Source: Trichoplax sp. H2
Taxonomy: Eukaryota
Direction: 5' to 3'
Length of the DNA stretch: 64,000 nt
Assembly (NCBI GenBank): GCA_003344405.1
Contig: NOWV01000123.1
Coordinates: 124,001 to 188,000, forward strand
In this document: positions 130 through 57,140 of the stretch, one piece after another
Layout: each line of letters starts with the position of its first letter
How positions within the stretch are numbered: position 1 is the stretch's first letter
Translations under genes and position numbers: made by a program
Notes under the pieces: generated by a model
The model's input: the letters and a program-made list of their open reading frames with translations, nothing else
The model's database searches: none
What the model was told of the DNA's origin: nothing

Positions 130-3108
130 ATAGCGTCGATTTACCATTTGATTTAAATCAGATACGGGATCTATCGGCTAGGTTAAGAGATGCAGCTGTT
201 GGTATAATTGGAGTCTGTCATTCTCGGCGAAGTAACCATCATTCTTCTTCAATGATTGCATTTAACAAAAGGCCTACGATAGAAGATAACAAAGCAAAAC
301 TAACACAACAGTGGAGTTTTTACGAATGGCTAACTGTTTGCAGAAGTGTTACAAAACTGGTTAAACACCTATATGATCGAGATTCACGCCTATCATTTTG
401 CCAGCCGAACCATTGGTTGTCGCCATTAGCTAATATTCAGATTGACAACGTAAGATTATCTACTGAAATTTTTCACTTTGTACAGTTCACAACTTAAAAG
501 GGTTAACCATTTATTTTTGGAAAACATAGCTGGACTTAGAGTACTTTTTTAAAGATGAAGGTATAGCCTATGTTTCATGCGTTATTATTAACTTAGTACC
601 TGATTGAAACTGCAATAAACACGTATGTATAAACTCACTTTTCTAATTAGAAATGAGAGGGCGTCCAACTCAAGAAGTAGCGCTGGTACAAGAGCTGCCA
701 TTTGTCGTTTCCTTCCAAGATAGGATAAAGGTCAGCACATTATCTGTTTTATAATGGCGAATCATGTAATCTTTTAATATCATGCAATCATTGCTCCAAA
801 TCATTAAGTTCGATATATTCTAACCTCTCTGTTATAGATCTTACACTACCTTGATCGCTTAGATGCAGATGCTAACTCGACTGGTTTAGAACAATTTATG
901 ATGGGCTCTCTAAGTGCTGTAGTAAAGCGTGGTAGAATGTATGAAGATGCATTTAATGCGCTAACGAAGGAGAAAGGTTAGTAATCATCTACTATTATAG
1001 CGTAGCCACTTTTGCATTTCAGTGTTACTTATGTAATTTTAATTTTATTACTCATATGCGTATGTTGATAGCGCCAAATTTGAAGAAAAAGATTCGTGTT
1101 ACAATTTTAAATGAACAAGGATTAGAAGAAGCGGGCATAGATGGTGGCGGGTTGTTTAGGTATTATTTTTGTTACGTTTTATCTGCTGTCAACTTTGTAT
1201 TTATATTTATGTACTACGATTTAATCGCTTTTTGCTGCAGGGAATTTCTGACCGAGGTCTTAAAGGAAGGATTTAATCCGAACTATGGTCTTTTTAAGCT
1301 CACGCAAGATGGTTGTTTATATCCAAATTCAAATGTAAAGCTTCTTTTATCCGTTAATTAATTATAAATTAATTTTACAAACGCGAATTTAAGCGTACAC
1401 CGGTATTGGTAGTGTTGTAGCAACGATATATTATGATTATAATTATTGATACTCTTTACAGGTACCGGTTATAATTTCAAACTTTCGCGATCATTACTAC
1501 TTCTTAGGTAGAATTCTTGGTAAAGTAAGTTAAACTTTGCAAATATCAATTTTGTAGGATTTAATGTAATGAGATTACATTCTTAACTCTTATGTTCGCT
1601 TATGAAGGCAATATTTGAAAAGCATCTTGTTGAGTTACCGTTAGCTGGATTCTTCTTAAGTAAAATCCTAAGTGATAATAGTGAAGTCGGTATCCATCAT
1701 TTGGCTTCGCTAGATCCTGTGATGTACAAGTGTGTATAGCTTCTGGAACATTGTTGATGATATATTTTGTGTATTTAGTTTATTTTTGAAACTAAGAAAT
1801 TTGTTTAATATGTTTTTATTAATTACATCACTATCACATACAGAAATTTGTTGTCATTAAAGAGCTATCAAGGGGATATAGCAGACCTGGAACTCAACTT
1901 TACAGTCGTTAATGAAAATCTTGGCGAAGCGGAGGTATGATAAATAATAATATAATAATGATTTCAAGAAACAATTTATTAAGTAAATTTTATATCTTTT
2001 GCTTATTACGTTGCTATACAAGAATGACAGTATGAGAAATGATTATATTACTTTTAAATTATTAATATAGGTCGTTGATTTAAAACCTGGTGGCCAAAAT
2101 ATTGCCGTTACACCAGAAAATCTAATTGAGTACATTCATAAACTAGCAGATTATAAATTGAATAAGGAGGTAAATACTTGTAAGGTATCATACATACATA
2201 ACACCATATATTCGTTATATTTAGTCTTTTCTAAACGCTTTATATTGTGTGATTTTTAAGGTGTTGCATAAGAACAGTTTAAATTTATTTTATTTAAATG
2301 CGATAGATACGTCGACAGTACTTAGCTTTTAGAGAAGGACTTGCTGATGTAATCAATATTGAATGGTTAAGACTCTTCAATCAGCACGAACTTCAGGCAT
2401 GATTTTATTCTCTCTTTAAAGCGCGATGTGTAATTAATAAATCTAATGCGATATTATAATACATACAGGTCCTAATATCTGGCGCCGAAGTGCCGATAGA
2501 TCTACAAGATTTAAGAGCTAATACAAACTATTCAGGTACCTAGCTAATTGTCTTCTTCGAAATAACTGATGCTTTGCTATTACTTCACAATTATACGCTT
2601 ATATGTAACTTCCTACTATGACTTGATGACTTGAATTGTTAATTATGAAATTATATACTGCAGGTGGCTATAGCGATAATGACGAATATATTAATATGTT
2701 CTGGGATGTAGCCGAGGATTTTACAGACAAACAACGCAGAAAGTTATTAAAGTTTGTTACTAGCTGTTCAAGGCCTCCACTGCTAGGCTTTAAGGTACTC
2801 TTTATTAATTTAAGCGGCATCGAAAAGAGTCCTCAGTCGTACCATAAATTAAAAAATCATTTTCATTCTGTTTCCGTTATTCTGATCAATCAACGTGTTA
2901 ATTACTTCTATTTGAAACATGTTTTATTTAGGAGTTGTTTCCGGCATTCTGCATTCACGGATCAGGCGAGAGCAATGATGAAACGCGACTACCTTCGGCT
3001 AGCACCTGTATGAACTTGTTGAAATTACCAAGATTTCGCAGTCGGGATATTTTAAAAGAAAAGCTGACTTATGCTATAGAATCTAATTCTGGATTCGAAT
3101 TAAGTTAA
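130..3108 (+). CDS. UBE3C: HECT E3 ubiquitin ligase UBE3C, multi-exon, 5' end outside window
   Basis: Spliced translation gives [25 protein letters not shown]...[28 protein letters not shown], catalytic [15 protein letters not shown] and terminal [12 protein letters not shown] (TAA 3106-3108). [11 protein letters not shown] matches UBE3C rather than UBE3B (GIDQDGVFKEF). Confidence 0.92.
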
Positions 3109-11198: not shown

Positions 11199-14100
11199 AT
11201 GACGTATAACTACGATACTGTGGATTTGGATAAGATCCTAAACGATTTAGAAAATGAAGATGATCATCCTCAAGGTAAGCAGCAATCTATATTGTACTGT
11301 TGCTTTACCTAAAGCTAACAAATAATTCTTTATCATGCCGTGCTGTTTTACTGCTTTCAACTAGAATGATCAAATAATTCGTGTTGGTCTTATTCTTTAC
11401 GTATCATTACTTCATATATATCATGAATTTATGGCACCTCATATTTACAGACCGTGGTGTTTATTCCGTCGTATCAGATAAGCTACCTTACCTTATTATA
11501 GGATTTTAAGCTTTTTAATATCTACAATAAGATAGTTTTGATTCATATTACTATTTATCACCTATCGAAATTGTAAATGCAATAGATTTTGATTGTTGAC
11601 ATTGACGATTGTCATTTATATACGCGTATATTAATTATGCACGTAGATTACTGTAGATGCATCGAATGCGAATGACTTTTGCAGCACAGCTTAATGTAGA
11701 TAATGTCAAATATCACATTATATATATACAGTAAGTGCATTATATTCATCGATGTGCAGACCACTCTCTCTCTCTTGAGTCGAACATCCTTGTGTCTTCT
11801 GTTATTTTAATGTGTTACAAAGCGGCAGCGGATACACTACTGTATTATTGTACTATATGCGTATATAGAGTATCACGGAATGATACTGCTTCAACAGCGT
11901 TAACGAGCATTGCCGTACAGTAGTATAAATTTAACCCTCATTCAATCTTATTGTAACGTCTATAAATGAAGTAAATTATTGTCTCTTACAACATCTAAAT
12001 TTGAACGTTAGGACTATCGATGCAGCCGCCATTGTATCATCAAAATAGCACTGTCAATCGTCCCAGTGCTATGACCCCTGACAATTACCGCAAATCAAAT
12101 AATCTCAATAAGAAGCCTATTCCAGAACCAACGACCCATCGACCATTGAATAGAAGTAATGCAGTTAAGCACCCCATACCTTCTATTAGCAGTAGCTCTC
12201 ACAATCGTAGCATCATGGAAGAAACCACATCCAGCAGTGTCTATCCATCATTGGCTGCATTTGAGTCATCGAATACTGGAGTAATTGAACAAGGCTATCC
12301 AAGCGGTGATAGCGCTAACGCTTTGATTAATAGTGATTATAATAAAAATAATAATTTGCAACATAGCAGCAGCTCAGTTAACCGTAACCTATATGGCTTT
12401 CTAGCTGGACACAATTCCATTAATAGCGAAGCCAATGGGTACAGCAGCGATCCCGCTGGCGGAAATGTAATCACAACCACAAACAACGTTAGTACTAGCG
12501 ACGCTGACTATTATCAGAATTTTATTAACCAAAATAGCACCGGTAATGGCCATCCAAACCGTAGTTATAACGATAGCTCAGAGAAAAGGAGTACTAAAGT
12601 CCCCGTGCAACCTTCATCTGATAATGAAAGTGATAATGAGTGGGAAACTATGCTGGATAAATATGCATCACCTATACATGTAAATGACAAGACTGGTAAT
12701 CAAGCGAATTCTGCTACTCCTACATCTACCTCAATTGCTAGCAATACTAATCATGGTAATGCGCAAATGCCTAGTTCTGGCCAAATCAATAATTCTACCA
12801 ATGAACTCAGTACTGCTTTAGATATTGATAATATTTTGCCGAAGTTCGATATTGCAAGCCTTAAATCTGATTTCAATTCAATACCATCTTCTGGTACTTC
12901 ATTACATCCTACTTCAAGTAATGATATTGCCCCAGAAACAAATAGTACTAAATTAAAAACACCGAGTAACCATTATACAGGAAATTTATCGCATCAACCT
13001 AAAGTTGATGCGGATTCTAACGAAGCTCCTACAAGTTTTGAGAACTCTCAGTCTACTCAACATGTTTCAATGGTTCCTACTTCTCATGACAACAGGATTG
13101 TATCGCCTGAAGGTGACATTACTCAAGGATTGGTATCTTTTTCGAACAATGATAACATTAATATTAATCATGATTTAGAAAATAACGTTGTATGGGATAA
13201 ATCTGAAAACAATGATGCAGCTCCCTTACATAAAGAGAGAAACGATGAGATATCTACTATAGGAATTGTAAATACCGAGATAAACGCTATCAGCAATGTG
13301 AATAACCATGAAAATTTCAGTTTAACTGATACAACATCAGTTGATACGTCAAGCATGCTTCAAGATAAACAAAATCTTAGCAATTTTTCAACGAATAAAA
13401 CCAATAATCAAGAATCATCAACATCTACCTCATCTGATAAAAATAGAAATAACAATGAAGTAAGTAGCAGTTACAACAATATTTCAACCCAGCTGGAAAG
13501 TGTGTCCGGATCTTTCAAGAATTCTCACCAAAGTACATCGGATGAACTCTCAACCGACATTTTATCGCCAGTATCAATCATTGATAACACAAACAATCAT
13601 GTTAATGATACTAGTAGTGAATTTACTGTAAAAAATGATGTTACAGCTAAGAATAACGCTTTCAGCAACTTGCCAGACTTAAACGGTCGTATCAGTGGAG
13701 GAATGAAGTTACCAGAAAAATTCGGTAGCGATCAACCTGTTAAGAATTTCGTAGAATCTGCCAGCAAAAGTGGTGATAATACTATTTCTACCGTTCATGA
13801 GTCAATCGAAAAGACTAATTATAATGTGTCAGGTGTGATAGATAACGAAAAAGATAGAATTAGTTCAGAGTCTAGCATCGCTCGCTCTCTCTTGACTGAT
13901 TTTCAAGATAAGAACTCAAATGACGATAAGGCAGCTAAGATTGATAATGAATTAAACTATGATAACGATACCTTACCACTTGCTTTGACTAATGGTAATG
14001 ATTCTGCTACCGAAAAGAAATCTACAGAAAGTTTTGAGCTCGATAATTTAATTTTAGATCCTTTGTACGAAGTTAAAAAACGTGATACAACGGAGAATTT

Positions 14101-17100
14101 GGACTCGAATGATCTATCATCTTTGTTAGACATTAACTTCTCTACTGTCACCGTTACTCCGAATTCTGCTAATAGCATAACAAGTATCTCTTGTTCTGAA
14201 AACGTATCTCCCACCATTAAGACTGGTGATATTGATATTTCAAATAAAGAGACTATAACGGATTCTATTTTAGAGCGACAAGTTTTAACCGATCAGGAAA
14301 AAGTGAGCGACCACGAGGAGAAATCATTAGAATCTAAATCATGCAACGAATCACTACTTATTGACAGTCATGGTAGTAATCAAGTTGATGCTAGCCATAA
14401 CCAAGAAAATTCAAACGTATCTGATTTACATTTGGATAAGGATGATCTTTCTTCTGATATCAAATCTGTAGGCATTAAAATAAACCCAGAGTATATTACA
14501 ACAAATATACCCTACAGCAAGGACGTAATAGAAAATGAAGGGGCTAATAATTTAGATATCACTAGTAGTGAAGAAACTGCAAATGAAAAGTCATCAATTA
14601 TTAATACAGGAAATACACCTGAAGGGAATATTCTGTCTGATAGCAATATGGACTATCTTTCAAGTGATAATATTCCCGTAATCGACGATCTCTTATCTGG
14701 TGTAATGAACGAATTAAATGGTAATGAAGATTATCATCAAGAAATCAACGATAATATTACTAACAGTGGAGGTAGGTTTGTTAGCAGAATTGATTTATCA
14801 GATACAGTGGCTTAGAAATTGACTTAAAAATCACTAAATGAAAACAATTCATGCTGTTGCAGGTGATGTAGCTGAAACTGATATAGAAAATCCATCTTCA
14901 AATGCAACTACAGTTTCTGTAAATAATTCGATGGAAGTTAACTCTCATCCCAATAATGTTACAGATAACGGCAACTCCTTACAAGAATCTGAAGATAACT
15001 TTTTACGTTTGACTGACGATGTAGATTTAATTAGCGGCAGCAATGCGCTATCACAATGCATGGATCTTGTTCTTAATATGGATAATCTGGAGCAGTTTCC
15101 CGAGGAACCAGTTTCGGAAGCAGCAGTAAAAGGTGATGTATTGCCGTCTACAAATACTATGAATGATGTCATGCCACATGATGAGTACAATGGAATTAAA
15201 AATACGCTTGAAACCTTGACAAATGGTAGAGACAACAGCCAAGTTAATGATAGATTATTAACGACGGCTACGGTAGACGCTTTGATTCCAAGTAATGCGG
15301 AGCGTGCACCTGGCCATCTTACTGATAACAACAATGTACCAAGCTCAAGCGGTACATTTAGCGAAGAAAATTTTATGCAGACTTCAATCAATCCACAAAT
15401 TAACGAAATGAGTTTAGTCGACGTTAGTAATGGATTACATTCTGATATTGCAAGTGATCAAGTCTCCAATCAGAACTTACCGACAGAAAATATAGTTGAT
15501 GATATTAACAATAATGTTGCCGAAGCTGCAGCTTCTAGCAATCATAATGTTGGCCAGTCTGATGGAGGCACATCCAATTTAGCCAGTAGCGGGAGGTCAA
15601 ATAAAGTTGGTAGAAGAAGCGTCAGGTTTGCTCCTACAGCAGAATATATTGGCATAGAAAATGTAACAGATGATGGTTTGCCAACATCTCAACCTCAGGT
15701 TCTTCGTCGTAATATTCCAATTGACCAGAGCTACCGAGTTGGTTTGGCTAGTCAGAGTCCTCCAGATAATGAAATACCTTCAACTGGATCTACACCAACA
15801 AATAGAGATGACCTTCCTAGTTATAGCCTTGGAAATCAGGCCGACAATCTAGCTGGCAGTCCTAATAATTTTGTAAGTAATGATGCTACAGGCAACATGC
15901 CTCAACCTGACGTAAGTACATCCTCTGCTGATTACGTACCCATTACTCCTGCATTTCCTGGACTCGGATTTGAACGACCAACTTGGGTGTCGGATACGGA
16001 GGCCGTTCAGTGTATGCAATGTGGGGTTAAATTCACAGTTTTAAAAAGGCGTCACCATTGCCGCGCATGTGGGCAGGTAAATGGACTTTGCATATCGCAA
16101 TACGTGTGTAGTCTTAAATTATATCCCTCATATAAAAACTTGATATTTTAGGTCTTATGTGCTGCTTGTTGTAGCATGAAATTTGTGTTGACCTTTCTGA
16201 GTAATAAACCCTCTAGAGTTTGCCATATATGTTACCAGTACTTAAATCAACAACAGCAGCATCCCATTCGAGAACCAGCGCCATCTTATGAAGAAGCAAT
16301 GCGAGCTCCTCAGCCTCTAGATTATCAAACCGAAATAGCTGCGGGTTCTGCCATAGCTTCTACCACTGGCATGATCACACCACCGACGAATTTTCAACCT
16401 ATATCTGTACAATCTTTAAGTCAACCAAGTACGAATGTTGTTTCTTCTTCTCCAAATACTAATGAAGTGCCTCAGGTTGCTTCCGGTAGTGAAACTAGCG
16501 TAGCTGAGGCCGCCAGTAGTCAAGATAACAGCAGGAGAGAAGGTAAAGACTGTAATGAATTGGTCATCGCCTTTATAGATTATCTTGAATTGAACGTTAT
16601 TAATTTTTATTTCTCTAAGGTCAAGCATTATCTAATAATGGAGAGTCTAATGAAAGTGACAATAGGGGTGATACCGACGAAGGAAGGCAATTAAGTGGTA
16701 TATTTTATGTTTATGTTGTTAAATTTCTGAAAAGTTAATTGTTACAATGACTGTTGTTAATTATTTATCTACCATGATGTAGAGATTGAAGTTTGTACAC
16801 GAAAACTACTCTCATTTACCATTAGTGAACGTGTTCGCGTAAAGGTCAAACTAGCAAACTGTAAGTAGCATGTATGAATTTCTCTTTAACTGTGTACCAC
16901 ATCACTGACCTTCCTTCATTCCTACAAATCAAATCTGTTACTTCCATTTAGATGCTGAAAGATTTTGTTGGTGCTTCTGTACGAGTGGATTATCGAACTA
17001 TGGCCAGCAGGAATTGGTTATTGCTCAGTTAAATTTTGTTTGTAGTAGCATTTTCAAAATTAACTTAACCTTTTCCAATACTAATTCTTGTTCGGTTAGG

Positions 17101-19267
17101 TAATTGTTTTGGAACGATTAAGTACTGACGATGTTGTTCCTCGTGGCATGTTAAAATTTTTTAAAGTGATATATAGACAGGCCAAGCAAGGTATGCATCT
17201 AAATTGGGATTGTATTCGAAAAATTAAGCTGAATACTATTTGCATAAATTAATATTGTAGGCGTACATGTCCGAAATATGGACTACACAACCTTTACTTC
17301 CCCTCATCTTGGTCATAGTGATATAAGCGCATGTCTTTTCATTGAACATGCCGGCCAGGTAGCCACAGTGATTTAGATTTAACAATTTTTTCAACTCTGC
17401 AAACTGCCTACTCAATTGAAGATGTTTTTATTTAGCCACTCATCAATTTAGTTATTCCCAAATCACCCTACCTATTTGGACTACTTATTCATCGTAATGA
17501 ACTGGTATGGGCTAGGGCTTTCCCTCTCCGACTTTTAGTAGGTCTCGGGAACTATTACAAAGGTAAAGCTTTGCTTAGTACAGTACCCAAAAGATTAGAC
17601 CGTTGTTATAGATAGGGATCGAATAACGCACTAATAACGATTTAAATGTTAAAATGATTTCGAAGTTTATAATATAATGTAAACTTGTACGTGGTAGAAT
17701 ATCCTTATCCGATCTGGAGTTATCGAGATCGTCAAGCCCTCTTCTCTGAAATTGGTCATACCATAATGCGATTACTAATCGTAAGAATGATATTGGCTTA
17801 TTAAAACTCTTTGAAATATATCATGGGTTCGTAAATATTAAATAGTCAGGTGCATATTCATGTTCTATTAGGATTTCGACTCTGGACAGTACACATTGGA
17901 GCGCATACCAGGACTTATTGTGCATTTAGAAAAGCGTAAAGTTACAATTACAATGGCCATGGACCAACATGATAAGGTCTCTACTTTGCAAAGTAAATAC
18001 TAGCACAGAGACAATGTTTCTAAAAATTCTATATCATGTATAATTATAGATATTGAAAGTCTTGAGTAAAAGCGATGAAAGGGTCTTAGCCTTTGGAGCA
18101 AACTTCAGTCCATTGGCTGACTCTGTACTGGTATGTACGCAAACGGATGGAGCCTATAAAGCTCAGATTATGTCAAGACCTGGATATGACAGAAATAGTA
18201 AGATTCATTGTAACTAATTGCAATTAACTACCGTATCACTCCATTTTTGATAGCTTGAATCTTAATTTAACCTTTTCTTTTAATAATAGCAATTGGAGCC
18301 AATTTTATCGTACTGAACTGTTCCTTAAAATCTGATAGCTCTTCGAGGATCAAAACTACAATCGTAGAAGGTTGATGCCTAGTATTAATTTTGTAACTCT
18401 ATTCTAGTGTAATAGTATTTTAATAACAAATTTAGTAATTTGCAATATATTCAACAAATAACATTAACAAAAAATCTTTACTGTTGCAGACGGTATAATG
18501 ATGCAATTAAATACGGATGCTAACCGTTGCATAAGAGATGCTATTAGCAATATGACAGATTGTACAGTGGAGGGACATATAGCAACAAATGATGAAGCAC
18601 CTTTAACAACAGAAGATGATTTGGTTGTTATCAAGTGGACACCGAGTGATTGTACCGCAAATTTAGGGTAAGCGATAGGTGTATTTTCGATTTTATGCGT
18701 CGTTTTTCTGAATGATCGTTTATGTAAATTTTGTAGCGTAATAAGTCATGTGGATGGCATGTCACTGGCTGGGATTAAAAGTCTCGATATTTATGAACCA
18801 GTTCTAAATAAAAAGAAATCGAAAACCAAAGCTGCTCTACGCTGGACTAAATTGTTTTATCTGGATAGTGGGAGTGGAGGTCATGCTGAAATTGCTACAA
18901 CATTTGCTGAGATGTTGGCGCAAGCTATACATTCAGCTCTAGAACCATCAGAGGAATTATTTGTTGCAAAGAGCATCAGAGAATTCGCTGTAAGAGTGAC
19001 GCTTGATGGTGAAACGGTAATGGCAAGTCGATATACTTGAATATCGTGGTTATAAGTTATAATTTAAAAATGGCAATTAAATACTAACGCTATGCCACCT
19101 GGTTTATTTTTAACTTTTGATAGCATACGGAATACAAGGCTGGGTACCGAGGACAGCCACTGCCAGAAGAACTTATTGAACAATTTGATGAATGTTTAAT
19201 TCCACTGTTACATCAAACCGGCTCTTCTATAACTAGCTGCATTGAGTTACTTTTTCGTGTATATTAA
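11199..19267 (+). CDS. SARA/endofin-family FYVE protein (ZFYVE9/ZFYVE16-like), multi-exon
   Basis: Exon 1 MTYNYDTVDLDKILNDLE resembles the family N-terminal DLDKLLDDFE motif. FYVE domain PTWVSD...RRHHCRACGQ|VLCAACC...RVCHIC. C-terminal SARA-type domain (YLFGLLIHRNELVWARAFPLRLL, YPYPIWSYRDR, VLAFGANFSPLADSVLVC) ends ELLFRVY*. Cannot choose between the vertebrate paralogue names. Confidence 0.88.
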
Positions 19268-20916: not shown

Positions 20917-21600
20917 TTAATTTTTCAATCCTGCAAGTTTCTTCAATCTCTCGTTTTCTTTAACTCTACCCATAAAACTGTCATGATAGAATAATATTGC
21001 ATATCAGAGAATTGTATTGAACACGAGTTTTATCTATCTTTTAATTATCTCTTTACATCCATAGTACTGTACGTATATAATAGCAACAGCAATCAGTCTT
21101 TCATGATACTAGTTGACTGATGGCAACAATATCAATTTCAATCAACATTAACGACTGAACAGATTGCACTAATGCGTGAGTCGGTCATCATTATATCGAT
21201 CTTGTATCGGATAAGTTAAGTAAAAGTCTTATCGGTTGAAAAGCTAATTTTCATTTTATGTCATCCGACATATTGTATTGAAAAGTACTTACTCTTCATA
21301 TTCGCATTCATGCCAAGCATGTCGTTCATGTTGACATCTCCAAGGTAGGTAATAGTTTTCTTTCCTGCATTTCATCAGAGGGATATAAACATGAGCGCAA
21401 AAGTCACGACGGTGCAATGGAACTTTTGCATCTTCCATTTCCTGGGCCGTAACTTGCATTTCTATCAATAAGAAATAATTTATCATAGAGTTCAGTATTG
21501 GTTGATAAACTGCCCGACTTCAACTATCATGACAGGCGTGGAATAATGCTTAAAATATCATCGTACTTTTATTAGGATAGCAGGGTTTATTGTCAGCCAT
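20917..21600 (-). CDS. NDUFB7: Complex I accessory subunit NDUFB7 (B18), 3 exons (21600-21567, 21461-21293, 20977-20917), about 87 aa
   Basis: MQVTAQEMEDAKVPLHRRDFCAHVYIPLMKCRKENYYLPWRCQHERHAWHECEYED with twin CX9C; splice phases are compatible. Confidence 0.92.
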
Positions 21601-21679
21601 TTTTTCTCTCTCTCTCTCCAGTAGTGTCGTAGTCTGAAAAAGGGTACAACAGACTGTTACCGACGCGAGTGTTGGCTAC

Positions 21680-21980
21680 AGTGTACAGTACAGTACAGTG
21701 AATCACGTTTTGCTGTACTGTACTGTACAGTACTGTAGTTCTTCCAGACCGGACGGACTGAAGTACTGTACCGTTCAGCGGTACAGGGGTATAGACAATC
21801 CACCAATCACGATCATCACTTAATAATTACAGTACAGTACAGCGTACTGTAATCTACAGTATCAGATACTGTGGTTGACTTACAATGTACTGTACTGTGC
21901 AAAGTGTATAGTACAGTATAGTACAGTAATCCTTATAGTGTACAGTTCAGTACAGTACAGTAATCCTTATAGTGTACAGC
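21680..21980. promoter_or_regulatory. TACTG/CAGTA pentamer array in the NDUFB7-MSH1 divergent region
   Basis: acagtgtacagtacagtacagt, tgtactgtactgtacagtactgta and two copies of agtacagtaatccttatagtgtacag. Confidence 0.55.
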
Positions 21981-23665
21981 ACGCGTAAATCGCTATTTCT
22001 GTGCTTTGGCTGATTGTCAGTTACTATTCCTACTTCAACGATTAAGATCAGTCCATCTTCTCACTTTATGTTAAGAAGGGACCTTCATTTGTAATTTTTT
22101 TTTCGTATCATGGACTACTAAAATCACTGTAGTAATTTCTATGAGTCCATGGTTATGCTGTAATCTGTGAAGTTGAAGGTAGGATTTTGAAGCAGCTCAT
22201 GCCATCATGACTTGCCTTCTATCGCTGTGGTTAGCGTTTTAACCACAGCGCAGCTACAGCTACAAGTTGCCTACAACATACTGTAGACTGCACCAACAGC
22301 AGAACAAAAAATTCGACTAGGATTTGCAATGAGATCGTTGATCTACAAGACTACAATTAATACTGAAAAAAATTGAAAGACCATACTGATTGAAATTTAT
22401 TTCTCTATGCTTCCTGACAGTGCACACTGTAGTATGCAGACAAGAGTATACGACCATCACTGTTGAGTTTGTTTGAAATCCTTGCAGATTTACTGGCATC
22501 TGATAGCACCATGATATCATTGCGATGCAATCCAATTACTGTACTGTAAATTACTGCCATTATATATTTATTATATATGCATACTGAATCATCACGACTG
22601 ATTCATCTATTTGCAGTCATTCGCAGTGCTGCAGCAGTGGACTAATCGAGGTGTATATCTTATGGAGAAAGTGTATTTACTTTTGCAAAAGTATCTGATG
22701 ACAGCCATGAGTAATATTGAGCCTGCAAACGCCCGTTAAACTTGCAGCACAGTACTGTACTGTACAACTTCAAAGCAAAAAGTTGAAGACCTCAATCATA
22801 ACCAGGTGCTAAAAACAACCAATAAAACAAAAATATACTACCCTCCAAGGCAGATCTACAAAAATAGCTGATATTCTATTTTCCCTAGTTCAGGCTTAGT
22901 AATCACAGAAGGACAGATCGCGGACTATGCTGAAGGAGCTGAACAAAGCTGGAAACTCAACTGCATTGAGCTCAGCAGCTAATGAGCAAAATGCCAGCAA
23001 GTTGCCTCAGGTTACGGTAGCAGATCCGTTATTACTTTTAGTTCGATGATATCAACTTACATTTTCATATTCCAATTAATGGTATAGATTCTCTGATCTA
23101 TTATTATTAACATAGACAAGTCTCAAATTCTACTCTTTTTATCCTACTGGCCCTGAGAAGCTGACTTTGGTGCAAATTCTACCTGCAAATGGTCATTCTT
23201 CACTGATCAGGTGCAATGTAAAAGTAATACATTCGAGTGGAACTAATTTGGACACAAATTCTATGCAATGTAATAAGAGCATGTATTAATTATATAGTAC
23301 CTGCTAGTCTGCTACTACCCTGGAGGTTTTCTTGTCAATAATGATTAGCTATTATCTACGAATTACAGTATACAGTACAGTACGTAAGACGAGCTATACA
23401 GTATGTGTCATGCAACTGATTCGCACCTTTTCTCGAGAGTTTGCATAAGTTGCATAACTATCTGTACATTTTCTGGGCATTCTATTGCAATTTAATCACG
23501 CTTTTAGAAGAAACTTTGTATAATTGTCTTTACATCTTTAGGCTTTCCATCGTTGAACTGCTTGCTGCTAGTCTATCCTAAAACTTTTCATTACTTGTTG
23601 TACAGTAGATACACAGTATACGCCTCAAGTAGGAAATATTCAATTCTTTGGGTGAAGCAACTAAA

Positions 23666-26600
23666 ATGCTCCTACGCTGTCTAGCAAGAAAAACGACATG
23701 GCCTTCCACTAGTAAAAACTGGCCGCAATTCATTTTATCCTCACAACGTCGTTTTAATTGCTCTCGCTATACTGATAAAATTTCAACTGTCTCAACAGCA
23801 GTCAAATTTAAGCCTACGGTGTCGACAATGAAAAGACCACATTTATTAAAGCAATACAGAGATATTAAACAAAGCTACCAAGATTTTGTCTTAATATTTC
23901 AAATTGGTGAAGCCTATGAAGTGTATGATAAAGATGCTGATATTGTTGCCAGCAAGTCTACACTTCCATTACTTGACACTGCTAATAACATGGAATCAAC
24001 GTCCGCGTTACTTCGAGTGCGCTTTCCAAAGCACCAAGTTGATGATGTTGTCAAGACACTTTGCAGGGAGAAGGTCAAAATCGCCATTTGTAATGAGCAA
24101 ACTACAAGGTATGTATCAACTTGCATAATCGAACATATTAGCAGCGAAATGATTATAGCGTGATAATATAACTATTTAAACTGAATAGTGACCAAAAAAA
24201 TGACCTGTGAATGAATAATGTCGGTAACTGTTAACAAACATCTTTGTTAAAATTACGTATATGTTTGTAGGAGTACAACCTCGGCCAATCTGAGAGAGCG
24301 CAAGGTAACCAAAATTTTCACACCTGGCACTTACACTTTCGCAGAATACAATTCCAGCATCGATACTAGCAATTACTTGCTCTCCATTGTTGATGGCCCT
24401 GAAGAAACTTTAGGATTAAGCTGGATCGATGTTGCAGCTCAAGACTTTCAGGTATTTATTAATATGTTAAATATGGATAGTTAAATTTATATTCAAGCTA
24501 ATATTAATATAAGGAAAAACCGAGAAAAAGCTGTTAATTAATTAGTTATCCATCATCGATTCAGTTTACATCATCAACCTTAACCAACTTGTCCGCAGAC
24601 CTTGGACGCATTAACCCATCTGAAGTTTGTCATCATCGCTACTATTGTTTATGCAGTGATTAAAAGATGAGCACATTATCATTTCTTTTGCCATGTATTT
24701 ACTGGTAGGTTTTAATATCGAAACAAATGCAAGAATTAATTAATCAATGCGAACAAGGATATCTTCATCGTTCTTTGGCTGTAAAAATCAAATTAATTGC
24801 CAAGTTATTTCAAAATATTTGCATTACCTCTGTCGATGTCGCTGATGAAGCTTCTACAAGACATATTAAACGAAGTAATCTTTAGCCTATTTCGTAATTT
24901 AATAGATTGATGCAAGAACTAATGTAACTGTCTTTTTAGAATATGCACAAATTCTTTGCGCCATGCGTAAGGTCAAACCATCTCAGCTAGAATTTGAAGC
25001 TTGTCGGGTTTTAATGCAATATCTGGATTACATCGATGAGCATCTTTTACTTGAAACTTTAAAACCACTTAAATTTAAACAAGATGAACATATGTTAATT
25101 GATCCCACGACTAGAAAATCGTTGGAGCTAACAACGTAATCTTAAATACTTCAAGTGTTTTATTACGATTTTGATAGACATTCTGATCGATACGGTTCAA
25201 TGTGATCATTTTACACCTTAACCGACAAATTTTCTACTCTACTTTTTAGAACAATGTTTGGTGCCGTTCCCACAGTCTCCAAAGGTACGTTAGTTAATGT
25301 TTTGGATAGAACAGTGACCAGCGCTGGACGAAAAATCTTAACTGCGCGTGTTACTGCACCTTCTACGAATGTAAATGAGATTCAGCGCCGCTTGGATTTT
25401 GTATCGATATTTGCTACTAATCCAGGCTGCGCAACTGATATTCATAAATGTATGCAAGGGTGCCACAACATGGATGTTCTTCTACGCACGGTAATAATTA
25501 ATTACTATTATCAGTGCTCCTTTTCTGTATATTTTGAACTAAGTAAATATTAAAGGTTGAAAAAGAGCTTGACATGACCAGATCAATATCGAAATTTTAA
25601 ATTCCAGATTTCGATGAACTTAGGCAGTATCGATACTTTACGTGAGTTAATGAAGATACTAATTATTTCGGGTAAGTTAATTAAATCTGCAAGTAAACAT
25701 GTTTTACTGAATAACATTGAAGTGTAACAGAAAATATAACGTTAGCTTACCTTCAATCCATCGTTGCTAAGATGATATCAAGGATATACTCAGAAATAGA
25801 ATATCTGCAAGTGATGTTTTAGCCGTAGCCGAAGGTAAAAATGCCAAAAGATCGAAATAAAATTAATATTTAATAGAATGATATACGATTTCCGTATAAA
25901 CGTACTTACTACAAGAAAATCTATCAGCACAAACTCATCGTATCCGTCGTAAATTTAAAACTGACTTTGTAATTTACTAGATCTAGGAAACTTTATCGAT
26001 TTAAAAGAAAAGCTTATTCGTTCGGTAATGAACGCTACAGACAATGGATTATTTGCCAAAGGTAAAGATAATACTTTAAGGAAATTTCCTCAGTAAACAA
26101 GGTTATTTTTGTTAATTAAAACGTATCATACTTACCTTCATTAAGGATACTGTGCTGAGGCCGATGAAATTGAATTACTTAAAGCGAACAATGATCATCA
26201 GGCCAACAATTTGAGAATGCAACTTAGCAATCAGTTTGGCCTTCCCCGCTTGGATCTGTTGACTAGCAGAGACTTCCATCGATCATTCTGTATTAGTTCG
26301 CCAGCTGCTAACAAAATTAGTAATCATCATGGATATTTCGTGTAAGACTTATCGTTTTCATTCCTACTTATTGGTTATATTACGTCATAAATTATATAAT
26401 GAATTTTAACATTTTATAAAATTTATTGCTATACCTTACTTACATCTTTAATTTAATACCCTGTTCTTTTATTTAGTATCGACGCTGGTACGTCCGGTAG
26501 TAGTAAAAAAATTGAATTTAGGTACATTAAACTGCTTCAAGATATTTTCTTATGCGCGTATCGATAAGATTGAATTTGTATAGATAACGTAAATATCAGG

Positions 26601-29020
26601 ATTACTATGTAATTATGCTATTATGCTAGCATCCCTGAGTTAGAAGAACTAAATACTGAGTGGTTACAACTTCATCGACGTCAGATTGAATTGCAACAAA
26701 AACTTTTCACTGATCTTCGAGCAAAGGTACCTTTATTTGATTCACCAGTAAAGCGACCAAAGATGACAGCTAAAATATTGCTGTACTGTGTTTTATTACC
26801 TTGCAGATCATACCACTAGTAGATGAATTAACCGTTACTGGTCAAACACTCGCAGAATTAGATGTTGCTTGTGCATTGGGTATTGGAGCACATGAAAGGG
26901 TATATCATGAACTTTTTACTTTTAACAGATTTCTAGTATTACAGTGTATACTCAGTATTCATGCATGAAAATACACATGCTGGTATTTCTATATGTAATT
27001 CTTGCAGGGGTATTGCAGGCCACTGATTACTGAAGATACTACTTTCGATATTAAGAACGGAAGACATCCTATTATTGATGCATATTACAGCGGTAACTTA
27101 TTTAGCTTTTAAATCATTTGAAGAAATGAAATCTATGACAGTTAAATTGCTACAATATATGTACAGTATTTCAATTATTTTGCAAAAAGAATATCTTTTA
27201 ATTTCTCTTCTCAATAGCTGTACGTAGTACAGCATTACTATCCTATATTTCTGGATAACTTGAAGACATAAATCTCATTACAACTGCATAATTAATAATA
27301 ATACTGCTTGTAAATAATCGCATGTATACTATTATTTTTCTGCTATTTGCTCGTATAAACTAGAAATGTGCGTAAGTAACAACTGCAATTTGAACGAGAA
27401 AAATGTTTGGATTATAACTGGGCCAAATATGGCAGGTAAAACTATCACTTACAACGATATTCTATTCTGATACTGATAACAGGAAAAATTAAATGCAGCT
27501 TGTGATAGTATAAATGTACTAATTTACTATCAATCAATTATACTGTATAATCATTGATTCTAGGAAAAAGTACTTTTCTTAGGCAGAATGCCTTAATCGT
27601 TATTATGGCACAGGTTTGTTAGCTTTCTAGTTGCTTATATTCGTATAATCTTGTTTAATTCTCCGAGGATCATTGTTCAACATGAATAACTGAATGAGCC
27701 TTTTACTTTTACAGATGGGTAGTTTTGTACCAGCTCAATCAGCTAAAATTGGTACTATATTGCTTGGTATATAGAAAATGAATTAAACTTGATAGCATTA
27801 TTAATACAACTATATCTTTAGGAATTGTTGATCGAATTTTTGCTCGCGTTGGTGCCTGCGATAACATTGCGCAACATAGATCAACTTTTATGGTCGAGAT
27901 GACGGAATCGGCCTATATACTTTCACATGCTACGCCAAATTCATTTGTAGTACTCGATGAAATTGGTTAAATGCCTTTTTTGATTTATACACAGCATTAT
28001 TTCGTCCTCAATTTATACTAAAACTCATGCATATAAAATGTTTTGATAGGGAGAGGTACTTCAACCCTAGATGGAATATCTGTTGCTCAAGCTATTTTGG
28101 AATACTTTCATGAAGTAATACGTTGTCGAACACTATGTGCAACTCACTATCATCAGCTAGGCAAATTAGCCACAACTTTGAAATCAGCTTCATCATATCA
28201 AGTTTCAGCTAAGAAAAATTCAGATGGTGCTATTATGTATTTGTATAAAATATTTGTAAGCGAAAGTAGAGTAAGATTTATTTATAACAGCGCTAAAAAT
28301 TTGAGGGTTATGACGCTAATTCCTAATTTCGGTCACGGTAAAGTAAGAAATGTCATTCTTGCGTTCTATGCAGCCCGGTTATTGTAAACAGTCTCTCGGA
28401 ATTGAAGTTGCTATGCAAGCTGGTATGCCTACAGCCATTGTTGACAAAGCTTCGGTATACAGTTTACTACAAGCTAAACTTTACTAAAATTGCGATTGTT
28501 TGCTATATTTAGAGATTCCCTTGATTTAGTCTATTTCATTTATCATATACTTATTTTGATTTCCAGATAATATTAAAGAAATTACTCGTAACTGAAGACG
28601 AGTCTTTCAGACAATTTAGTATGGGTGGTTTTCCTCTTTACTGAAGTTAGAGATATAATGCACTTATAAACTTAAATTCCTTAAATATCGTTATTTCATC
28701 TTAGATGATCTTGGCCCTAACTCCTTAATGGCAAGTGGTACGAAGGATTCTGAAAGTCAGTTTGCTACTTTAAATGAAGACAGCATTAAAATAATCAGGA
28801 AAATTTGTAAAGGTAATCACAGAGCAATTTATTATTTCAAGTTCACACTGCTAAATGATCTATTTTATATAATGTAATCTCAGGTATACACCCATCATCA
28901 ATAAACCCCAAGGAAGCAATCATACAGCTATATTCAATTCTAGATAATTTGACACCAAAAGAGGCCGATGGATTTATGCACACCCTGATTCGCTTATCAA
29001 GATTGGCTCCCAGCAATTAA
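23666..29020 (+). CDS. MSH1: MutS1-family protein, MSH1-like, predicted mitochondrial, about 23 exons
   Basis: Arg/Ser/Thr-rich, acid-poor N-terminus ([35 protein letters not shown]); domain I ([22 protein letters not shown]); [35 protein letters not shown]; Walker [59 protein letters not shown]. These motifs resemble fungal MSH1 and bacterial MutS more than MSH2-6. Confidence 0.85.
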
Positions 29021-30020
29021 TTATTTATTAAGTTCATTATTTATAAATAATGGAGATATTGCTCTATATTTGTTATCGAGACATTGATAACTTGTGGAAC
29101 TTTATAGGTAATACAGTCAAATAATTCGATAAGAAACCAAAGGTAATGTTTGTTCTCCACTGTTAATAACGAAGGAAGAATTTGCTATAGACGATACTTT
29201 CGTTATTGCAATTTATCAATTAATTGATATTTGATTGATAAATAGTGAAAGATGACTTTATGCGAACATATTATACATAGAATTTATATTCAGTGTTGAT
29301 ATAATTCTAACAAGCCCTACCAAAATCTGTATTTACACATATTTATATACCTGAGTTTGCATCTTAATAATAACTACGTAGAAGATAAGTACGCTATATC
29401 TATACATCGAAATAAAGACACGTTTCACTAGAGTCTCTAAAATTGTTTAGTTTCGTTGTCAAAAAAGCTGCTACGGTGAATCTAATATTGGATCTTCTTA
29501 AAAGAGCATAAGAATCTTGCTAATGTATGACTATGCAATAACAATGATTAAAGTTCGATCCTGAACATAGCGAAGCATAATTTGTCCAAAAAAATGGTCT
29601 TCCTTATCAGGATAATGCTAAAGCAACGTTAGTAATCACATTAGTAAGGATTTATCGCTTACAATATTTTGTTGACGGTAACGACAATCTCCGTAATGAG
29701 TATTTGAAATAGTAAGCAAATACGGTGTTCAGAACAATAGCAAGGAACTATAAGACACTTATCTACTCATTCACAATTAATCGATCTTCAATGATTATAT
29801 ACGCTGGCCTTTTTTAGCTTAAAATCTGTGTCTACACTTTACTGAAATAGTTTCACATTCGATTTATAGCAAAAGCAAAGAATAGAGTATGTGGGCACTA
29901 ACTACTGCCTATGTTTATAAATTGGGAATTTATTAACAGTCAACTCGATACTGTGCATATTCATATTTCGTGAGTCGGTGTTATGTCACGATAAGTCGTT
30001 TATCAGCCAAATTTAAGAAA

Positions 30021-55091: not shown

Positions 55092-57140
55092 TTAATGGGA
55101 CAGCATTACTGAAGTTGATGCTTTCGTCTATTATATAATGAAAAGATTACTAGGTTAGAAATAAGTAAAAAGTTGGATATACAATTGATTAAGGCAAATA
55201 GTGGTAATGCACAAGAGTAAATTCATAAAATATTGTAGACTTCAGAAGTACTCTTGAAATATACTAAATATCGTAAGATATTACATCGCTACCTTGGCTT
55301 CGTTGATTTCTTCTGTCCAATCCATTGCAGCAATTCGGGGTACAACATCAAGAAGTAGATCAATAACTTTATTGATATTCTGCTTAAATGCGGCGAGTGC
55401 TAATTCGACCGTTACCTTCAAAGTAGTAAAATACAGACATAGTTTTTTTGAAACTGTGTTTTACTTTATGCAAAATATATATTTTAAATTTCTGTCACAA
55501 CAACAGAAGAATAAGTAAGAGGAATAGAACTATGCACATTTAAACAATTTCTTGGTGATTTTGGTTTTGCTCTAAGAATTGCAGCACACTGTCTGCTTTC
55601 TAGTAGGTTTTCAAAATAGTTGCATGATTATATTATGCAGTACTACTTACAGCTTGCTCCGTTTCTAACCAAGCATCATAATCCGTTGGAAGAGCTATAC
55701 TTGCGTATAGTAGACCAGCTTCATTCGCAAGGCAGACTTCAGGTACAGTGGTCATATTTACAACAGTAGCCCCCCAGCTCTTGAAAAGTCTGCTTTCAGC
55801 TCTGGAAGAAAATCTGGGGCCCTCGATCGTCACTACAGTTCCTGACCGATGATGTTTCAGATTGAGGCTTGAAGCGCTGTTTGAAATGGTCTGAATAAAA
55901 ATAACTCATTTAAAAAGATTCAAAAACTATTCACAGCAAGCTAATGCACTTATTACTATCGAGACGCATGCATACTCGTACCTCTCGTAGCTTAGCACAG
56001 AAAGGCTCACTCATAGGGATGTGGCATACTCCGGCTGGGCTGTTTTGATGACCATCATAGAAGGTAGAAGTTCTCTTAGTCGTACGATCAAGGAATTGAT
56101 CAAGGATGACAATATCGCCAGGTTCGACATGTTGTTGCAATGACCCGCATGCAGTAGTTACAATTACATGTGTGCAGCCAGCTTGCTTCAAGGCGTCAAT
56201 ATTAGCGCGAAAGTTTACATTGGTCGGCATGATGGAATGTTTACGACCATGCCTATGGACGTAATTAATTAATGATTACACTAAATTTAATACTATACTA
56301 TACATTATTATTATTTATTAGTTGTTATATTATTGACAGGATTACGGTGATCTGACACTATCTTGCATTGTAGCAATACAGTTAAGAATGAGTTGCTTAT
56401 CGAAATGCATAGACTGTGTGTATTTAATTCTCACCGTGCTAATAAAACACAAGGAACGCCTTTAATTTTTCCAGATATTAGTTGATCAGAAGGCTGTAAA
56501 ATCATCAGGTAAAAGCTGCTTGAGACACTAATATAATCGTATTAATAACTACTCCATATTTATTTATGCTATATAGACTACTTCATTTTGCAATGAACAG
56601 TTAATATTTTCTTCTAGCATCAATAAAGAGCGTATCATTCAATCAATGCTACCTTGCCGTATGGTGTATCATATTCCTTTTCTACTCTCTCATCAAGAAT
56701 ATTAGGATTATCAAGCCCCGTGCCACCAATTATGCCTATCTAAAATAGAGGATATGTATTGCTATACTTTAGCTTAGAAATGGTTTGAAAAAATTTAAAA
56801 TTGAATGCAGCTATTGCAAGTCGGCAATACCGTAGCCACCTAGTTGCAAATACTTCTGGTGCAATTAAGTTTGTCGACACAAATTTGTATGCGCGGAAGA
56901 CGGCATAGTTAAATGAACGTGGAGCATAAACGTAATACTGTACCGATCGATCAAGATTTCATTGCTAATTGCAAAACTACACTTTATGCATGTACTGTAC
57001 GAATATATGGCATAATCCAATTCACAGTTAATAAAGTACGCGTATGTGTACGATTAAATAACGTCTGATTGCTGTAGATTTTATATTAATCAATGAAATA
57101 GCATTTTCCATTTTACGCGTAAACTTACTTTTACTGACAT
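55092..57140 (-). CDS. MTAP: S-methyl-5'-thioadenosine phosphorylase, multi-exon
   Basis: [16 protein letters not shown]...TPYGK|PSD...[22 protein letters not shown]...TTACGSL...[13 protein letters not shown]...NMTTVPE...TDYD. Confidence 0.96.

What the first reader, a model, noticed from the sequence alone, without database searches (positions are those of the whole stretch)
23860..24108. Mitochondrial MutS homologue with the mismatch-reading Phe replaced by Ala
Seen: domain I reads [14 protein letters not shown]; codon GCC (23912-23914) occupies the Phe position of the canonical GDFYE motif, and the downstream MAGIP/GFP motif reads LRVRFP. The ATPase motifs look intact and the exons I read are open. 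Established: this Phe (E. coli MutS F36) stacks on the mismatched base, and Phe-to-Ala substitution impairs mismatch binding and repair. Phe to Ala needs at least two base changes, so one sequencing error cannot explain it. Inference: a retained, ATPase-competent MutS that no longer reads mismatches could have a different mtDNA role (recombination surveillance, loop or junction binding), or pair with a Phe-retaining paralogue, analogous to MSH2 in MutS-alpha.
Basis: partly seen in the sequence, partly recalled or inferred. Interest (0 to 1): 0.8.

Follow-up and report, generated by a model that had tools for sequence, protein, structure and literature searches.

The report
Trichoplax mitochondrial MutS lacks mismatch phenylalanine
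A real, expressed Trichoplax nuclear gene for the mitochondrial MutS-type DNA repair protein carries alanine where its relatives carry the mismatch-sensing phenylalanine, but this was already reported in print in 2021 and what the protein does remains untested.

Summary
Window 23666-29020 (+) holds a 23-exon nuclear gene. Its product is letter for letter the 972-aa "DNA mismatch repair protein MutS [Trichoplax sp. H2]". Codon 83 (GCC, 23912-23914) aligns without gaps to E. coli MutS F36, and E85 aligns to E38. Of 373 homologues aligned at that column, 367 carry F and only the two Trichoplax proteins carry A. DNA and RNA contigs of 4 public runs show no other letter at the codon, and spliced contigs cross it. 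The ATPase motifs are intact, and the protein sits in a eukaryotic MSH1 clade next to a sponge.

It is not new. Muthye & Lavrov 2021 (PMC8438181, section 6) state that the duplicated MSH1 proteins of T. adhaerens and Hoilungia carry alanine at this position.

New here:
- Two neighbouring domain-I loops are also remodelled.
- The divergence is not specific to domain I.
- Spliced transcripts exist.
- Two donor sites of the annotated model disagree with the RNA.

The second placozoan MSH1 copy could not be retrieved, so the idea of a Phe-bearing partner stays untested. The printed sentence argues against it. Function is inferred only.

The parts
23666..29020 (+). Nuclear MSH1 (mitochondrial MutS1-type) gene. 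It has 23 exons and 22 GT-AG introns and encodes 972 aa as annotated. Exons: 23666-24108, 24271-24451, 24565-24624, 24709-24874, 24940-25135, 25250-25490, 25608-25671, 25772-25834, 25981-26061, 26146-26341, 26477-26521, 26630-26726, 26807-26899, 27008-27092, 27364-27435, 27564-27613, 27715-27751, 27822-27965, 28050-28270, 28374-28454, 28567-28624, 28705-28812, 28884-29020.
   Evidence: The exon chain reproduces P0001 exactly. P0001 is named MutS [Trichoplax sp. H2] by its source. One search lists 15 GT..AG joints in RNA contigs and says 8 more are not shown.
23666..23839 (+). N-terminal 58 residues, a likely mitochondrial presequence and linker.
   Evidence: It has 12 K+R, 1 D+E and 16 S+T, with the first acidic residue at position 37. 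Model pLDDT is about 30 over residues 1-56. TargetP values of 0.96 and 0.73 are printed for the two T. adhaerens MSH1 proteins in PMC12292046 Table 1. An in-frame stop lies at 23630-23632, upstream of the ATG.
23843..24337 (+). MutS domain I (residues 60-170), interrupted by intron 1.
   Evidence: Pfam MutS_I, E 1.3e-20, residues 60-170. pLDDT is 92-94 over residues 61-100.
23906..23920 (+). GEAYE motif. A83 (GCC, 23912-23914) stands in place of the mismatch-stacking Phe. E85 is retained.
23975..23989 (+). DTANN loop, in place of the basic LT(K/Q)(R/K)G loop of relatives (N107 for R, N108 for G).
   Evidence: At the column of N107, 68 of 75 relatives have R. At the column of N108, 63 of 68 have G.
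24011..24028 (+). LRVRFP, in place of PMAG(I/F)P. R119 replaces a Gly that is invariant in relatives.
   Evidence: G in 75 of 75 relatives in the multiple alignment. The column is nearly invariant in alignment A1. See also the alignment print.
27408..28584 (+). MutS domain V, the ATPase (residues 686-878), spread over exons 15-21. Walker A GPNMAGKST is at 27420-27574, STFMVEM at 27881-27901, DEIGRGTST at 27956-28066 and ATHYH at 28139-28153.
   Evidence: Pfam MutS_V, E 7.5e-75, profile positions 1-187 of 188. Invariant columns are kept. 60% identity to the sponge protein in this domain.
28256..28270 (+). 15 bases counted as exon in the annotated model but spliced out in an RNA contig (donor at 28256).
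   Evidence: A joint 28255>28374 is seen in X17. The isoform stays in frame. pLDDT is below 50 at residues 842-852 of the annotated protein. E. coli has a 5-residue gap at this point.
28901..28951 (+). C-terminal helical region that HMMER aligns with the C-terminal end of bacterial MutS.
   Evidence: TIGR01070 matches residues 60-945. Many HMMER matches run to about residues 945-950. Helices at 916-968 in the model.
23178..23210 (+). 3' end of an upstream, probably non-coding, 5' exon joined to about 23606 in one RNA contig.
   Evidence: The loose end of X17 was located in the window at 23178-23207 and is followed by CAG|GT.

Best explanation
SHOWN. This is the intact, transcribed and spliced nuclear gene for a placozoan MSH1. 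MSH1 is the mitochondrial descendant of alphaproteobacterial-type MutS1. All MutS domains fold like E. coli MutS, and the ATPase and C-terminal regions are conserved. At the wedge position that stacks on a mismatched base, Trichoplax has Ala. Two neighbouring domain-I loops that are conserved in relatives are also rewritten (LTKRG-like to DTANN, PMAGxP to LRVRFP). The Glu of the Phe-X-Glu motif and the hairpin around it are kept.

INFERRED (my odds about 0.75). The protein cannot recognise base mismatches by the canonical Phe-stacking mechanism.

INFERRED (about 0.4, the mechanism I commit to). It still works as an ATP-driven dimeric DNA clamp in mitochondria. It senses DNA structure rather than single mismatches: heteroduplex or branched recombination intermediates, loops, or the GC-rich hairpins that crowd placozoan mtDNA. 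It would do so either as a homodimer or together with the other, apparently also Ala-bearing, placozoan MSH1 copy. In that way it would police recombination and repeat-mediated rearrangement rather than replication errors.
For: Identity and integrity:
- The exon-1 translation is 100% identical to P0001.
- The 23 open GT-AG exons reproduce P0001.
- Pfam finds MutS_I, II, III and V.
- NCBIfam NF003810 MutS scores 606.6 bits against a cut-off of 480, over profile positions 4-792 of 793.
- The AlphaFold model has pLDDT 79.9 and pTM 0.77. Its best Foldseek matches are E. coli MutS chains, with target-normalised TM 0.83-0.84.

Clade. In a FastTree of 152 sequences, Trichoplax joins the sponge Corticium (support 0.997), then four fungi (0.982). 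Together with amoebozoans and unnamed sequences they form a 15-leaf clade (0.999).

Expression. An RNA-Seq contig of X19 spans 23837-24106 joined to 24269-24446. A 2630-base spliced contig of X17 starts at 23603. No variant was reported at codon 83 in 4 of 4 runs.

Constraint. In the one DNA contig that covers the whole stretch (X2), 3 of its 16 differences lie in 2919 exon bases and 13 in 2682 other bases (Fisher p = 0.010). Non-synonymous changes are 2 per 2277 sites against 13 per 2682 non-coding bases (p = 0.016).

Domain I is not singled out for decay. Conserved family columns changed in Trichoplax versus the sponge are I 16 vs 9 of 33, II 6 vs 2 of 14, III/IV 16 vs 8 of 40, and V 16 vs 5 of 89.

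Loss of reading. A83 = F36. At the column, 367 F, 3 K, 1 Y and 2 A among 373 proteins. E. coli MutS F36A fails to bind G-T mismatches but still binds G-quadruplex DNA (abstract and passages of PMC3437207).

Context. Trichoplax and Hoilungia mtDNAs carry a large proliferation of short GC-rich inverted repeats, and a repeat-mediated recombination is deduced for one haplotype (passages of PMC7813641).
Against: - No biochemical or genetic data exist for this protein. The role is inference from a bacterial point mutant.
- E85, G81, Y84 and a confidently folded hairpin are retained, and domain I is as constrained as the other domains. That would also fit a protein that still reads some base-level feature.
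- A low substitution rate of placozoan mitochondrial protein genes is reported (passage in PMC7813641). This is not what one expects if all mitochondrial mismatch reading were lost.
- Across the 4 runs, 8 of the 9 exonic variants are non-synonymous. Non-synonymous against synonymous is not significant (p = 0.69). Three of the eight lie in the presequence region (codons 40, 42, 59).
- The second placozoan copy was not seen here, so its residue at this position is known only from one printed sentence.
- The link to hairpins is a coincidence of two facts, not a test.
Confidence: 0.5

Rival explanations
1. It is the non-reading subunit of a heterodimer. It pairs with a second mitochondrial MSH1 copy that keeps the Phe and does the mismatch reading, as MSH2 pairs with MSH6 in MutS-alpha.
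For: Two MSH1 copies in T. adhaerens and three in Hoilungia are reported (PMC8438181 section 6). Two T. adhaerens accessions, both with mitochondrial TargetP scores, are printed in PMC12292046 Table 1. MutS dimers use only one Phe per dimer; this is established knowledge from the E. coli and Taq structures, and the structure titles appear.
Against: [quoted passage not shown] That reads as no Phe-bearing placozoan copy. The paralogue was not found in this window and was not retrieved by any search. So neither its residue nor any co-variation at the dimer interface could be examined.
Confidence: 0.12
2. It still performs mismatch or lesion recognition. The remodelled domain-I loops (LRVRFP, DTANN) and the retained Glu would compensate for the missing aromatic wedge.
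For: E85 is retained. The hairpin is modelled with pLDDT above 90. Domain I is not more degraded than the other domains. A low mitochondrial substitution rate is reported for placozoans. MSH3 recognises loops with Tyr-Lys instead of the Phe; K was seen at this column in 3 MSH3-type proteins.
Against: F36A alone abolishes mismatch binding in E. coli MutS (passages). No aromatic residue was gained next to A83: the neighbours are E82 and Y84, and Y84 is the family's own conserved Tyr. The basic residues of the LTKRG-like loop are lost rather than gained.
Confidence: 0.2
3. It is a decaying duplicate on its way to becoming a pseudogene.
For: The Trichoplax stem branch is long, 1.01 substitutions per site. 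8 of 9 exonic variants are non-synonymous. Pfam does not detect MutS_IV.
Against: All 23 exons are open. Spliced RNA contigs exist in runs of two studies. Residues invariant across the family in the ATPase are all kept. Exons carry about one fifth of the variant density of introns in the DNA contig. The acceleration is spread over all domains.
Confidence: 0.03
4. It is a sequencing or assembly error, or RNA editing restores Phe.
For: None found.
Against: The same codon is present in a DNA contig (X2) and in RNA contigs (X19, X17, X18) from different studies, and in the independently annotated T. adhaerens protein. Two base changes would be needed.
Confidence: 0.01

Closest known systems
Animal and fungal MSH1 (mitochondrial MutS1-type; nearest named relative here: Corticium candelabrum 'MutS-like', P0270/P0121)
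   Same: Same clade. Same domain order: I, II, III, V plus a C-terminal helical region. The motif context is nearly the same: the sponge reads FQVGEFYEFY where Trichoplax reads [10 protein letters not shown]. It has an N-terminal extension. 60% identity in domain V.
   Different: Ala for the Phe, Arg for the invariant Gly of PMAGxP, and loss of the basic loop. The branch is long: 1.01 substitutions per site on the Trichoplax stem. Identity to a bacterial MutS (P0290) is lower than the sponge protein's in every domain I-V. Pfam MutS_IV is detected in the sponge but not here.
E. coli MutS F36A (laboratory mutant)
   Same: The same residue change at the same aligned position. The rest of the protein, including the ATPase, is intact.
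   Different: F36A is a single engineered change. It is reported to lose G-T binding and repair while keeping G-quadruplex binding (PMC3437207). The Trichoplax protein is a natural variant with further changes in domain I. It works in an organelle, and its binding properties are unknown.
MSH2 and MSH3 of nuclear MutS-alpha and MutS-beta
   Same: They are MutS-family subunits that do not use a Phe wedge on the mismatch. K occupies this column in the 3 MSH3-type proteins seen here.
   Different: They belong to different MutS subfamilies. The PDB sequence matches to Msh3, Msh6 and Msh2 are weaker than those to bacterial MutS. They are obligate heterodimers, and a Phe-bearing partner for the Trichoplax protein is not shown.
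Cyanobacterial-like MutS1 of Zygnema and ferns with a lost Phe-X-Glu motif
   Same: A natural loss of the mismatch-reading residues in an organelle-associated MutS1 that otherwise looks intact (passage of PMC12292046).
   Different: It has a different origin (plastid-derived) and a different lineage, and one or both motif residues are lost. Trichoplax keeps the Glu.

Membership tests
MutS1 / MSH1 family (by descent) | MutS domains I, II, III and V in order | tested here: met
   Pfam on P0001: MutS_I at residues 60-170, MutS_II at 182-318, MutS_III at 340-635, MutS_V at 686-878, all above their cut-offs.
MutS1 / MSH1 family (by descent) | MutS domain IV (clamp) | tested here: inconclusive
   Pfam MutS_IV was not reported at E <= 0.01. 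However, phmmer aligns residues 304-878 continuously to E. coli MutS 236-796, and the whole model superposes on MutS chains.
MutS1 / MSH1 family (by descent) | Curated full-length MutS model above its cut-off | tested here: met
   NF003810 scores 606.6 bits against a cut-off of 480. The stricter TIGR01070 mutS1 scores 511.1, below its cut-off of 641.7.
MutS1 / MSH1 family (by descent) | Groups with eukaryotic mitochondrial MSH1 rather than MSH2-6 or MutS2 | tested here: met
   It lies in a 15-leaf clade with sponge, fungal and amoebozoan proteins, support 0.999. The tree held only the best 150 HMMER representatives, so MSH2-6 were not in it. Their weaker similarity is seen.
MutS1 / MSH1 family (by descent) | ATPase motifs (Walker A, Walker B, signature, His) | tested here: met
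   G690-T698, S744-E752, D769-T775 and H804 are invariant columns in the 41 aligned sequences, and Trichoplax keeps them.
MutS1 / MSH1 family (by descent) | Mitochondrial targeting | tested here: inconclusive
   The N-terminal 58 residues are basic, rich in hydroxyl residues and nearly free of acidic ones, and are unstructured in the model. No targeting predictor is on hand. TargetP values of 0.96 and 0.73 are printed for the two T. adhaerens proteins, but I cannot tell which accession is this gene.
Mismatch-reading MutS subunit (functional class) | Phe of the Phe-X-Glu motif | tested here: not met
   A83 stands at the F36 column.
Mismatch-reading MutS subunit (functional class) | Glu of the Phe-X-Glu motif | tested here: met
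   E85 = E38. The column is invariant in A1.
Mismatch-reading MutS subunit (functional class) | Preferential binding to mismatched DNA | not testable with these tools
   Needs purified protein.

The most novel reading that the evidence does not exclude
Placozoans have no Phe-bearing mitochondrial MutS at all. After an ancient Phe-to-Ala change and duplication, their MSH1 copies became structure sensors: ATP-driven clamps that recognise hairpins, cruciforms or recombination intermediates formed by the GC-rich inverted repeats of their large mtDNAs. Low mtDNA substitution rates are kept by some other means. This would be a natural MutS1 lineage re-tooled from mismatch reading to structure reading.
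Probability: 0.15. Interest if true: 0.7.

Novelty: already known. Interest (0 to 1): 0.3.

Why it matters
MSH1 is the candidate explanation for slow mtDNA evolution in non-bilaterian animals, and the Phe wedge is the best-understood residue of the MutS family. A natural, conserved and expressed Phe-to-Ala MutS1 is a ready-made test of what a MutS can do without mismatch stacking. It also tests whether low mtDNA mutation rates in placozoans depend on mismatch reading at all. The substitution itself is already in print (Muthye & Lavrov 2021), so the value lies in the untested function, not in the discovery.

Tried and rejected
1. Fetching the second placozoan MSH1 copy failed.
   - The exon-1 search over longer proteins gave 2 hits among 260 candidates, both this gene.
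   - The whole-protein word search gave 120 hits and no further placozoan name.
   - HMMER over 1.84 billion representatives lists only the best 150. I looked up names for 16 of them, and none was placozoan apart from P0002.
   - A search with the sponge protein was saturated by alphaproteobacterial MutS: 8000 of 8000 candidates passed and 120 were listed.
   - tblastn of P0001 on the window finds only this locus.
   - All three word searches and the one HMMER job are spent.
3. dN/dS is underpowered. There are only 9 exonic variants in 4 runs. Non-synonymous against synonymous gives p = 0.52 for X2 alone and p = 0.69 for all runs.
4. Yeast msh1 wedge-mutant literature: searches for 'Msh1p'/'F105A' (76 papers, the 12 listed irrelevant) and for 'msh1-F105A' (0 papers) found nothing. 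What I remember of that work is recalled only and is not used as evidence.
5. Yamamoto et al. 2000 (PMC110738) is not held. It is cited only through the passages of two other papers.
6. The net charge of domain I is not unusual: +3, against a median of +2 and a range of -3 to +8 in 73 relatives.
7. The pairwise-BLAST count for the Gly column (residue 119) was spoiled by gaps, with 100 of 377 gapped. I used the multiple alignments instead.
8. RNA contigs of X19 give no cover for 25183-26678, and those of X18 none for 25931-26678. Nothing is concluded from that.
9. Complex prediction was not used. A homodimer of ATPase domains would pass by likeness to solved MutS dimers, and the partner in question was not available.
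10. Supplementary files of PMC8438181 are closed. They may show which placozoan copies carry Ala.
Full report
WHAT IS THERE

Reading the window and listing stop-to-stop frames shows an intron-rich gene on the + strand in AT-rich DNA (GC 0.31-0.38). Of 10 exon pieces given to Pfam, 5 matched MutS domains (one MutS_I, one MutS_III, three MutS_V) and 5 matched nothing.

The translation of exon 1 is 100% identical to P0001. Its source names P0001 "DNA mismatch repair protein MutS [Trichoplax sp. H2]", 972 aa. It is 97% identical to P0002, T. adhaerens TRIADDRAFT_58819.

A script that chains GT-AG introns reproduces P0001 exactly with 23 exons, 23666-29020. tblastn of P0001 finds no second MutS locus in the 64 kb. 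The neighbours are ordinary nuclear genes: HECT, a FYVE/SARA-like protein, a Med26/TFIIS-like domain and a PNP_UDP phosphorylase.

THE OBSERVATION

Codon 83 is GCC at 23912-23914. phmmer against PDB sequences aligns residues 60-161 to E. coli MutS 13-111 with no gap near the motif. So A83 = F36, Y84 = Y37 and E85 = E38, and LRVRFP (24011-24028) lies opposite PMAGIP.

They read 367 F, 3 K (MSH3-type), 1 Y and 2 A, and the two A are the two Trichoplax proteins (the earlier count on 255 proteins is). The nearest named relative, a sponge protein, reads FQVGEFYEFY where Trichoplax reads [10 protein letters not shown].

Contigs of four public runs were laid on 23500-29100. No other letter is listed between 23843 and 24114 in any of them, and all four have depth there. 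The one DNA contig (X2) covers the whole stretch with 16 differences. DNA and RNA contigs agree, so editing does not restore Phe.

IS THE GENE ALIVE?

RNA contigs are spliced exactly at annotated introns. X19, a declared RNA-Seq run, joins 24106/24269 in a contig that also covers codon 83. X17 has a 2630-base contig from 23603 through at least ten exons. One search lists 15 GT..AG joints and says 8 more are not shown.

In the X2 DNA contig, 3 differences fall in 2919 exon bases and 13 in 2682 other bases (Fisher p = 0.010). Non-synonymous changes are 2 per 2277 sites against 13 per 2682 non-coding bases (p = 0.016).

Against this, 8 of the 9 exonic variants pooled over the four runs are non-synonymous, three of them in the presequence region. 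The numbers are too small for a dN/dS statement (p = 0.69).

All family-invariant ATPase residues are kept. Pfam MutS_V covers profile positions 1-187 of 188 at E 7.5e-75.

The AlphaFold model, built from a 41-sequence alignment, has mean pLDDT 79.9 and pTM 0.77. Domain I scores above 90 over residues 61-100, and residues 1-56 score about 30. Its best Foldseek matches are E. coli MutS chains, with target-normalised TM 0.83-0.84. A pseudogene is very unlikely.

WHICH MUTS?

NCBIfam's MutS model NF003810 is passed (606.6 bits against 480). The stricter TIGR01070 is not (511 against 641.7).

The HMMER search of 1.84 billion representatives gave 35,479 hits at E <= 0.001. Among the best 150, the named top hits are a sponge (Corticium), Balamuthia, the fungi Syncephalis, Spizellomyces, Calcarisporiella and Ambispora, and Polysphondylium.

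In a FastTree of 152 sequences with 826 trimmed columns, Trichoplax joins the sponge (support 0.997), then the fungi (0.982), inside a 15-leaf eukaryote clade (0.999). The Trichoplax stem is long, at 1.01 substitutions per site.

The N-terminal 58 residues have 12 K+R and 1 D+E. PMC12292046 prints TargetP values of 0.96 and 0.73 for the two T. adhaerens MSH1 proteins and argues that the clade is of mitochondrial origin (passages). An earlier paper had already sorted a T. adhaerens mutS among eukaryotic genes for mitochondrion-imported proteins with valid introns (passage of PMC3641634). So "mitochondrial MutS homologue (MSH1)" is well supported, but localisation is predicted, not shown.

ALREADY IN PRINT

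Muthye & Lavrov 2021 (PMC8438181; I read section 6 in full and other passages) report two MSH1 copies in T. adhaerens and three in Hoilungia. [quoted passage not shown] Their 2020 preprint still said that all had the Phe. The paper gives no functional discussion in the passages I saw. The finding is therefore a correct rediscovery.

(a) The Phe is not the only change. In a 77-sequence alignment (75 relatives), Trichoplax differs at 16 of the 33 conserved domain-I columns. These include R119 where 75 of 75 relatives have G, N107 where 68 of 75 have R, N108 where 63 of 68 have G, and L116 and R117 where relatives have P and M.

(b) The divergence is not specific to domain I. Conserved columns changed in Trichoplax versus the sponge are 16 vs 9 of 33 (I), 6 vs 2 of 14 (II), 16 vs 8 of 40 (III/IV) and 16 vs 5 of 89 (V). 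A chytrid MSH1 that keeps the Phe also differs at 16 of 33 in domain I. Domain I thus looks remodelled under constraint rather than abandoned.

(c) The net charge of domain I is ordinary.

(d) Two donor sites of the annotated model disagree with the RNA: 28255 rather than 28270, and 28618 rather than 28624. The RNA form stays in frame at 965 aa and removes a 5-residue insertion. That insertion is a gap against E. coli and has pLDDT below 50.

MECHANISM

What is established:
- The Phe stacks on the mismatched base.
- F36A abolishes mismatch binding and repair in E. coli MutS.
- F36A still binds G-quadruplex DNA and rescues a structure-related phage phenotype (abstract and passages of PMC3437207; passage of PMC12292046).
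- Natural losses of the Phe-X-Glu residues are also noted in plastid-type MutS1 of Zygnema and ferns.

Placozoan mtDNAs of Trichoplax and Hoilungia are large and crowded with GC-rich short inverted repeats. They show repeat-mediated recombination, and a low substitution rate is reported for them (passages of PMC7813641).

My committed reading is an ATP-driven dimeric clamp that no longer reads mismatches by stacking (odds 0.75) and acts on structured or recombination-intermediate DNA (odds 0.4).

Rivals, with odds:
- A compensated mismatch reader (0.2).
- A non-reading partner of a Phe-bearing paralogue (0.12). The printed sentence lowers this, and the paralogue could not be fetched to check.
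- A decaying gene (0.03).
- An artefact (0.01).

VERDICT

The core fact is already known. Interest is modest.

Noticed in passing
window 28256-28270 and 28619-28624: An RNA contig of X17 uses donors at 28256 (GTAAGC) and 28619 (GTATGG) instead of the annotated 28271 and 28625. This gives an in-frame 965-aa product without a 5-residue and a 2-residue insertion. A variant in the DNA run X2 at 28626 changes the annotated GT donor. The annotated insertion coincides with pLDDT below 50 at residues 842-852.
   Followed up: yes
window about 22959-23210, joined to about 23606: The spliced X17 contig carries 252 further bases upstream. Their last 30 map to 23178-23207 and are followed by CAG|GT. This points to a 5' exon and an intron of about 395 bases ahead of the start codon. 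In-frame stops at 23606 and 23630 keep the ATG at 23666 as the start.
   Followed up: partly
P0002 (T. adhaerens orthologue) against window exons 3-4, 17-18 and 19-20: The 907-aa T. adhaerens model skips exons 3-4 and reads through parts of introns. It holds extra stretches after FQ, inside AKIG...IVDR and after SESR. [quoted passage not shown]
   Followed up: partly
window 21903-21979 (and GTACAG-rich DNA at about 21590-22000): A tandem repeat with a 34-base unit, 2.3 copies and 93% matches. It is rich in GTACAG and gives the odd YSTVQYSTV frames on both strands upstream of the gene.
   Followed up: no
window 23784, 23790, 23842, 25811, 25829, 27600, 28589, 29004: 8 of the 9 exonic variants among the four runs change the amino acid. 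Three lie in the presequence region (codons 40, 42, 59) and none lies inside domain I (residues 60-170). The numbers are too small for a test.
   Followed up: partly
window 2630-3010, 12005-19037, 47928-48854 (-), 55934-56275 (-): The neighbouring long frames match HECT, FYVE plus SARA_C (one large gene), a Med26/TFIIS-like domain and a PNP_UDP_1 phosphorylase. This is an ordinary nuclear context.
   Followed up: no
P0270 (sponge MSH1) against P0001: The sponge MSH1 is 37-40% identical to many alphaproteobacterial-looking MutS proteins (E about 1e-150 to 1e-160). Trichoplax reaches only about 30-34% (best bacterial-type E about 1e-118). The Trichoplax lineage is the fast-evolving one.
   Followed up: partly
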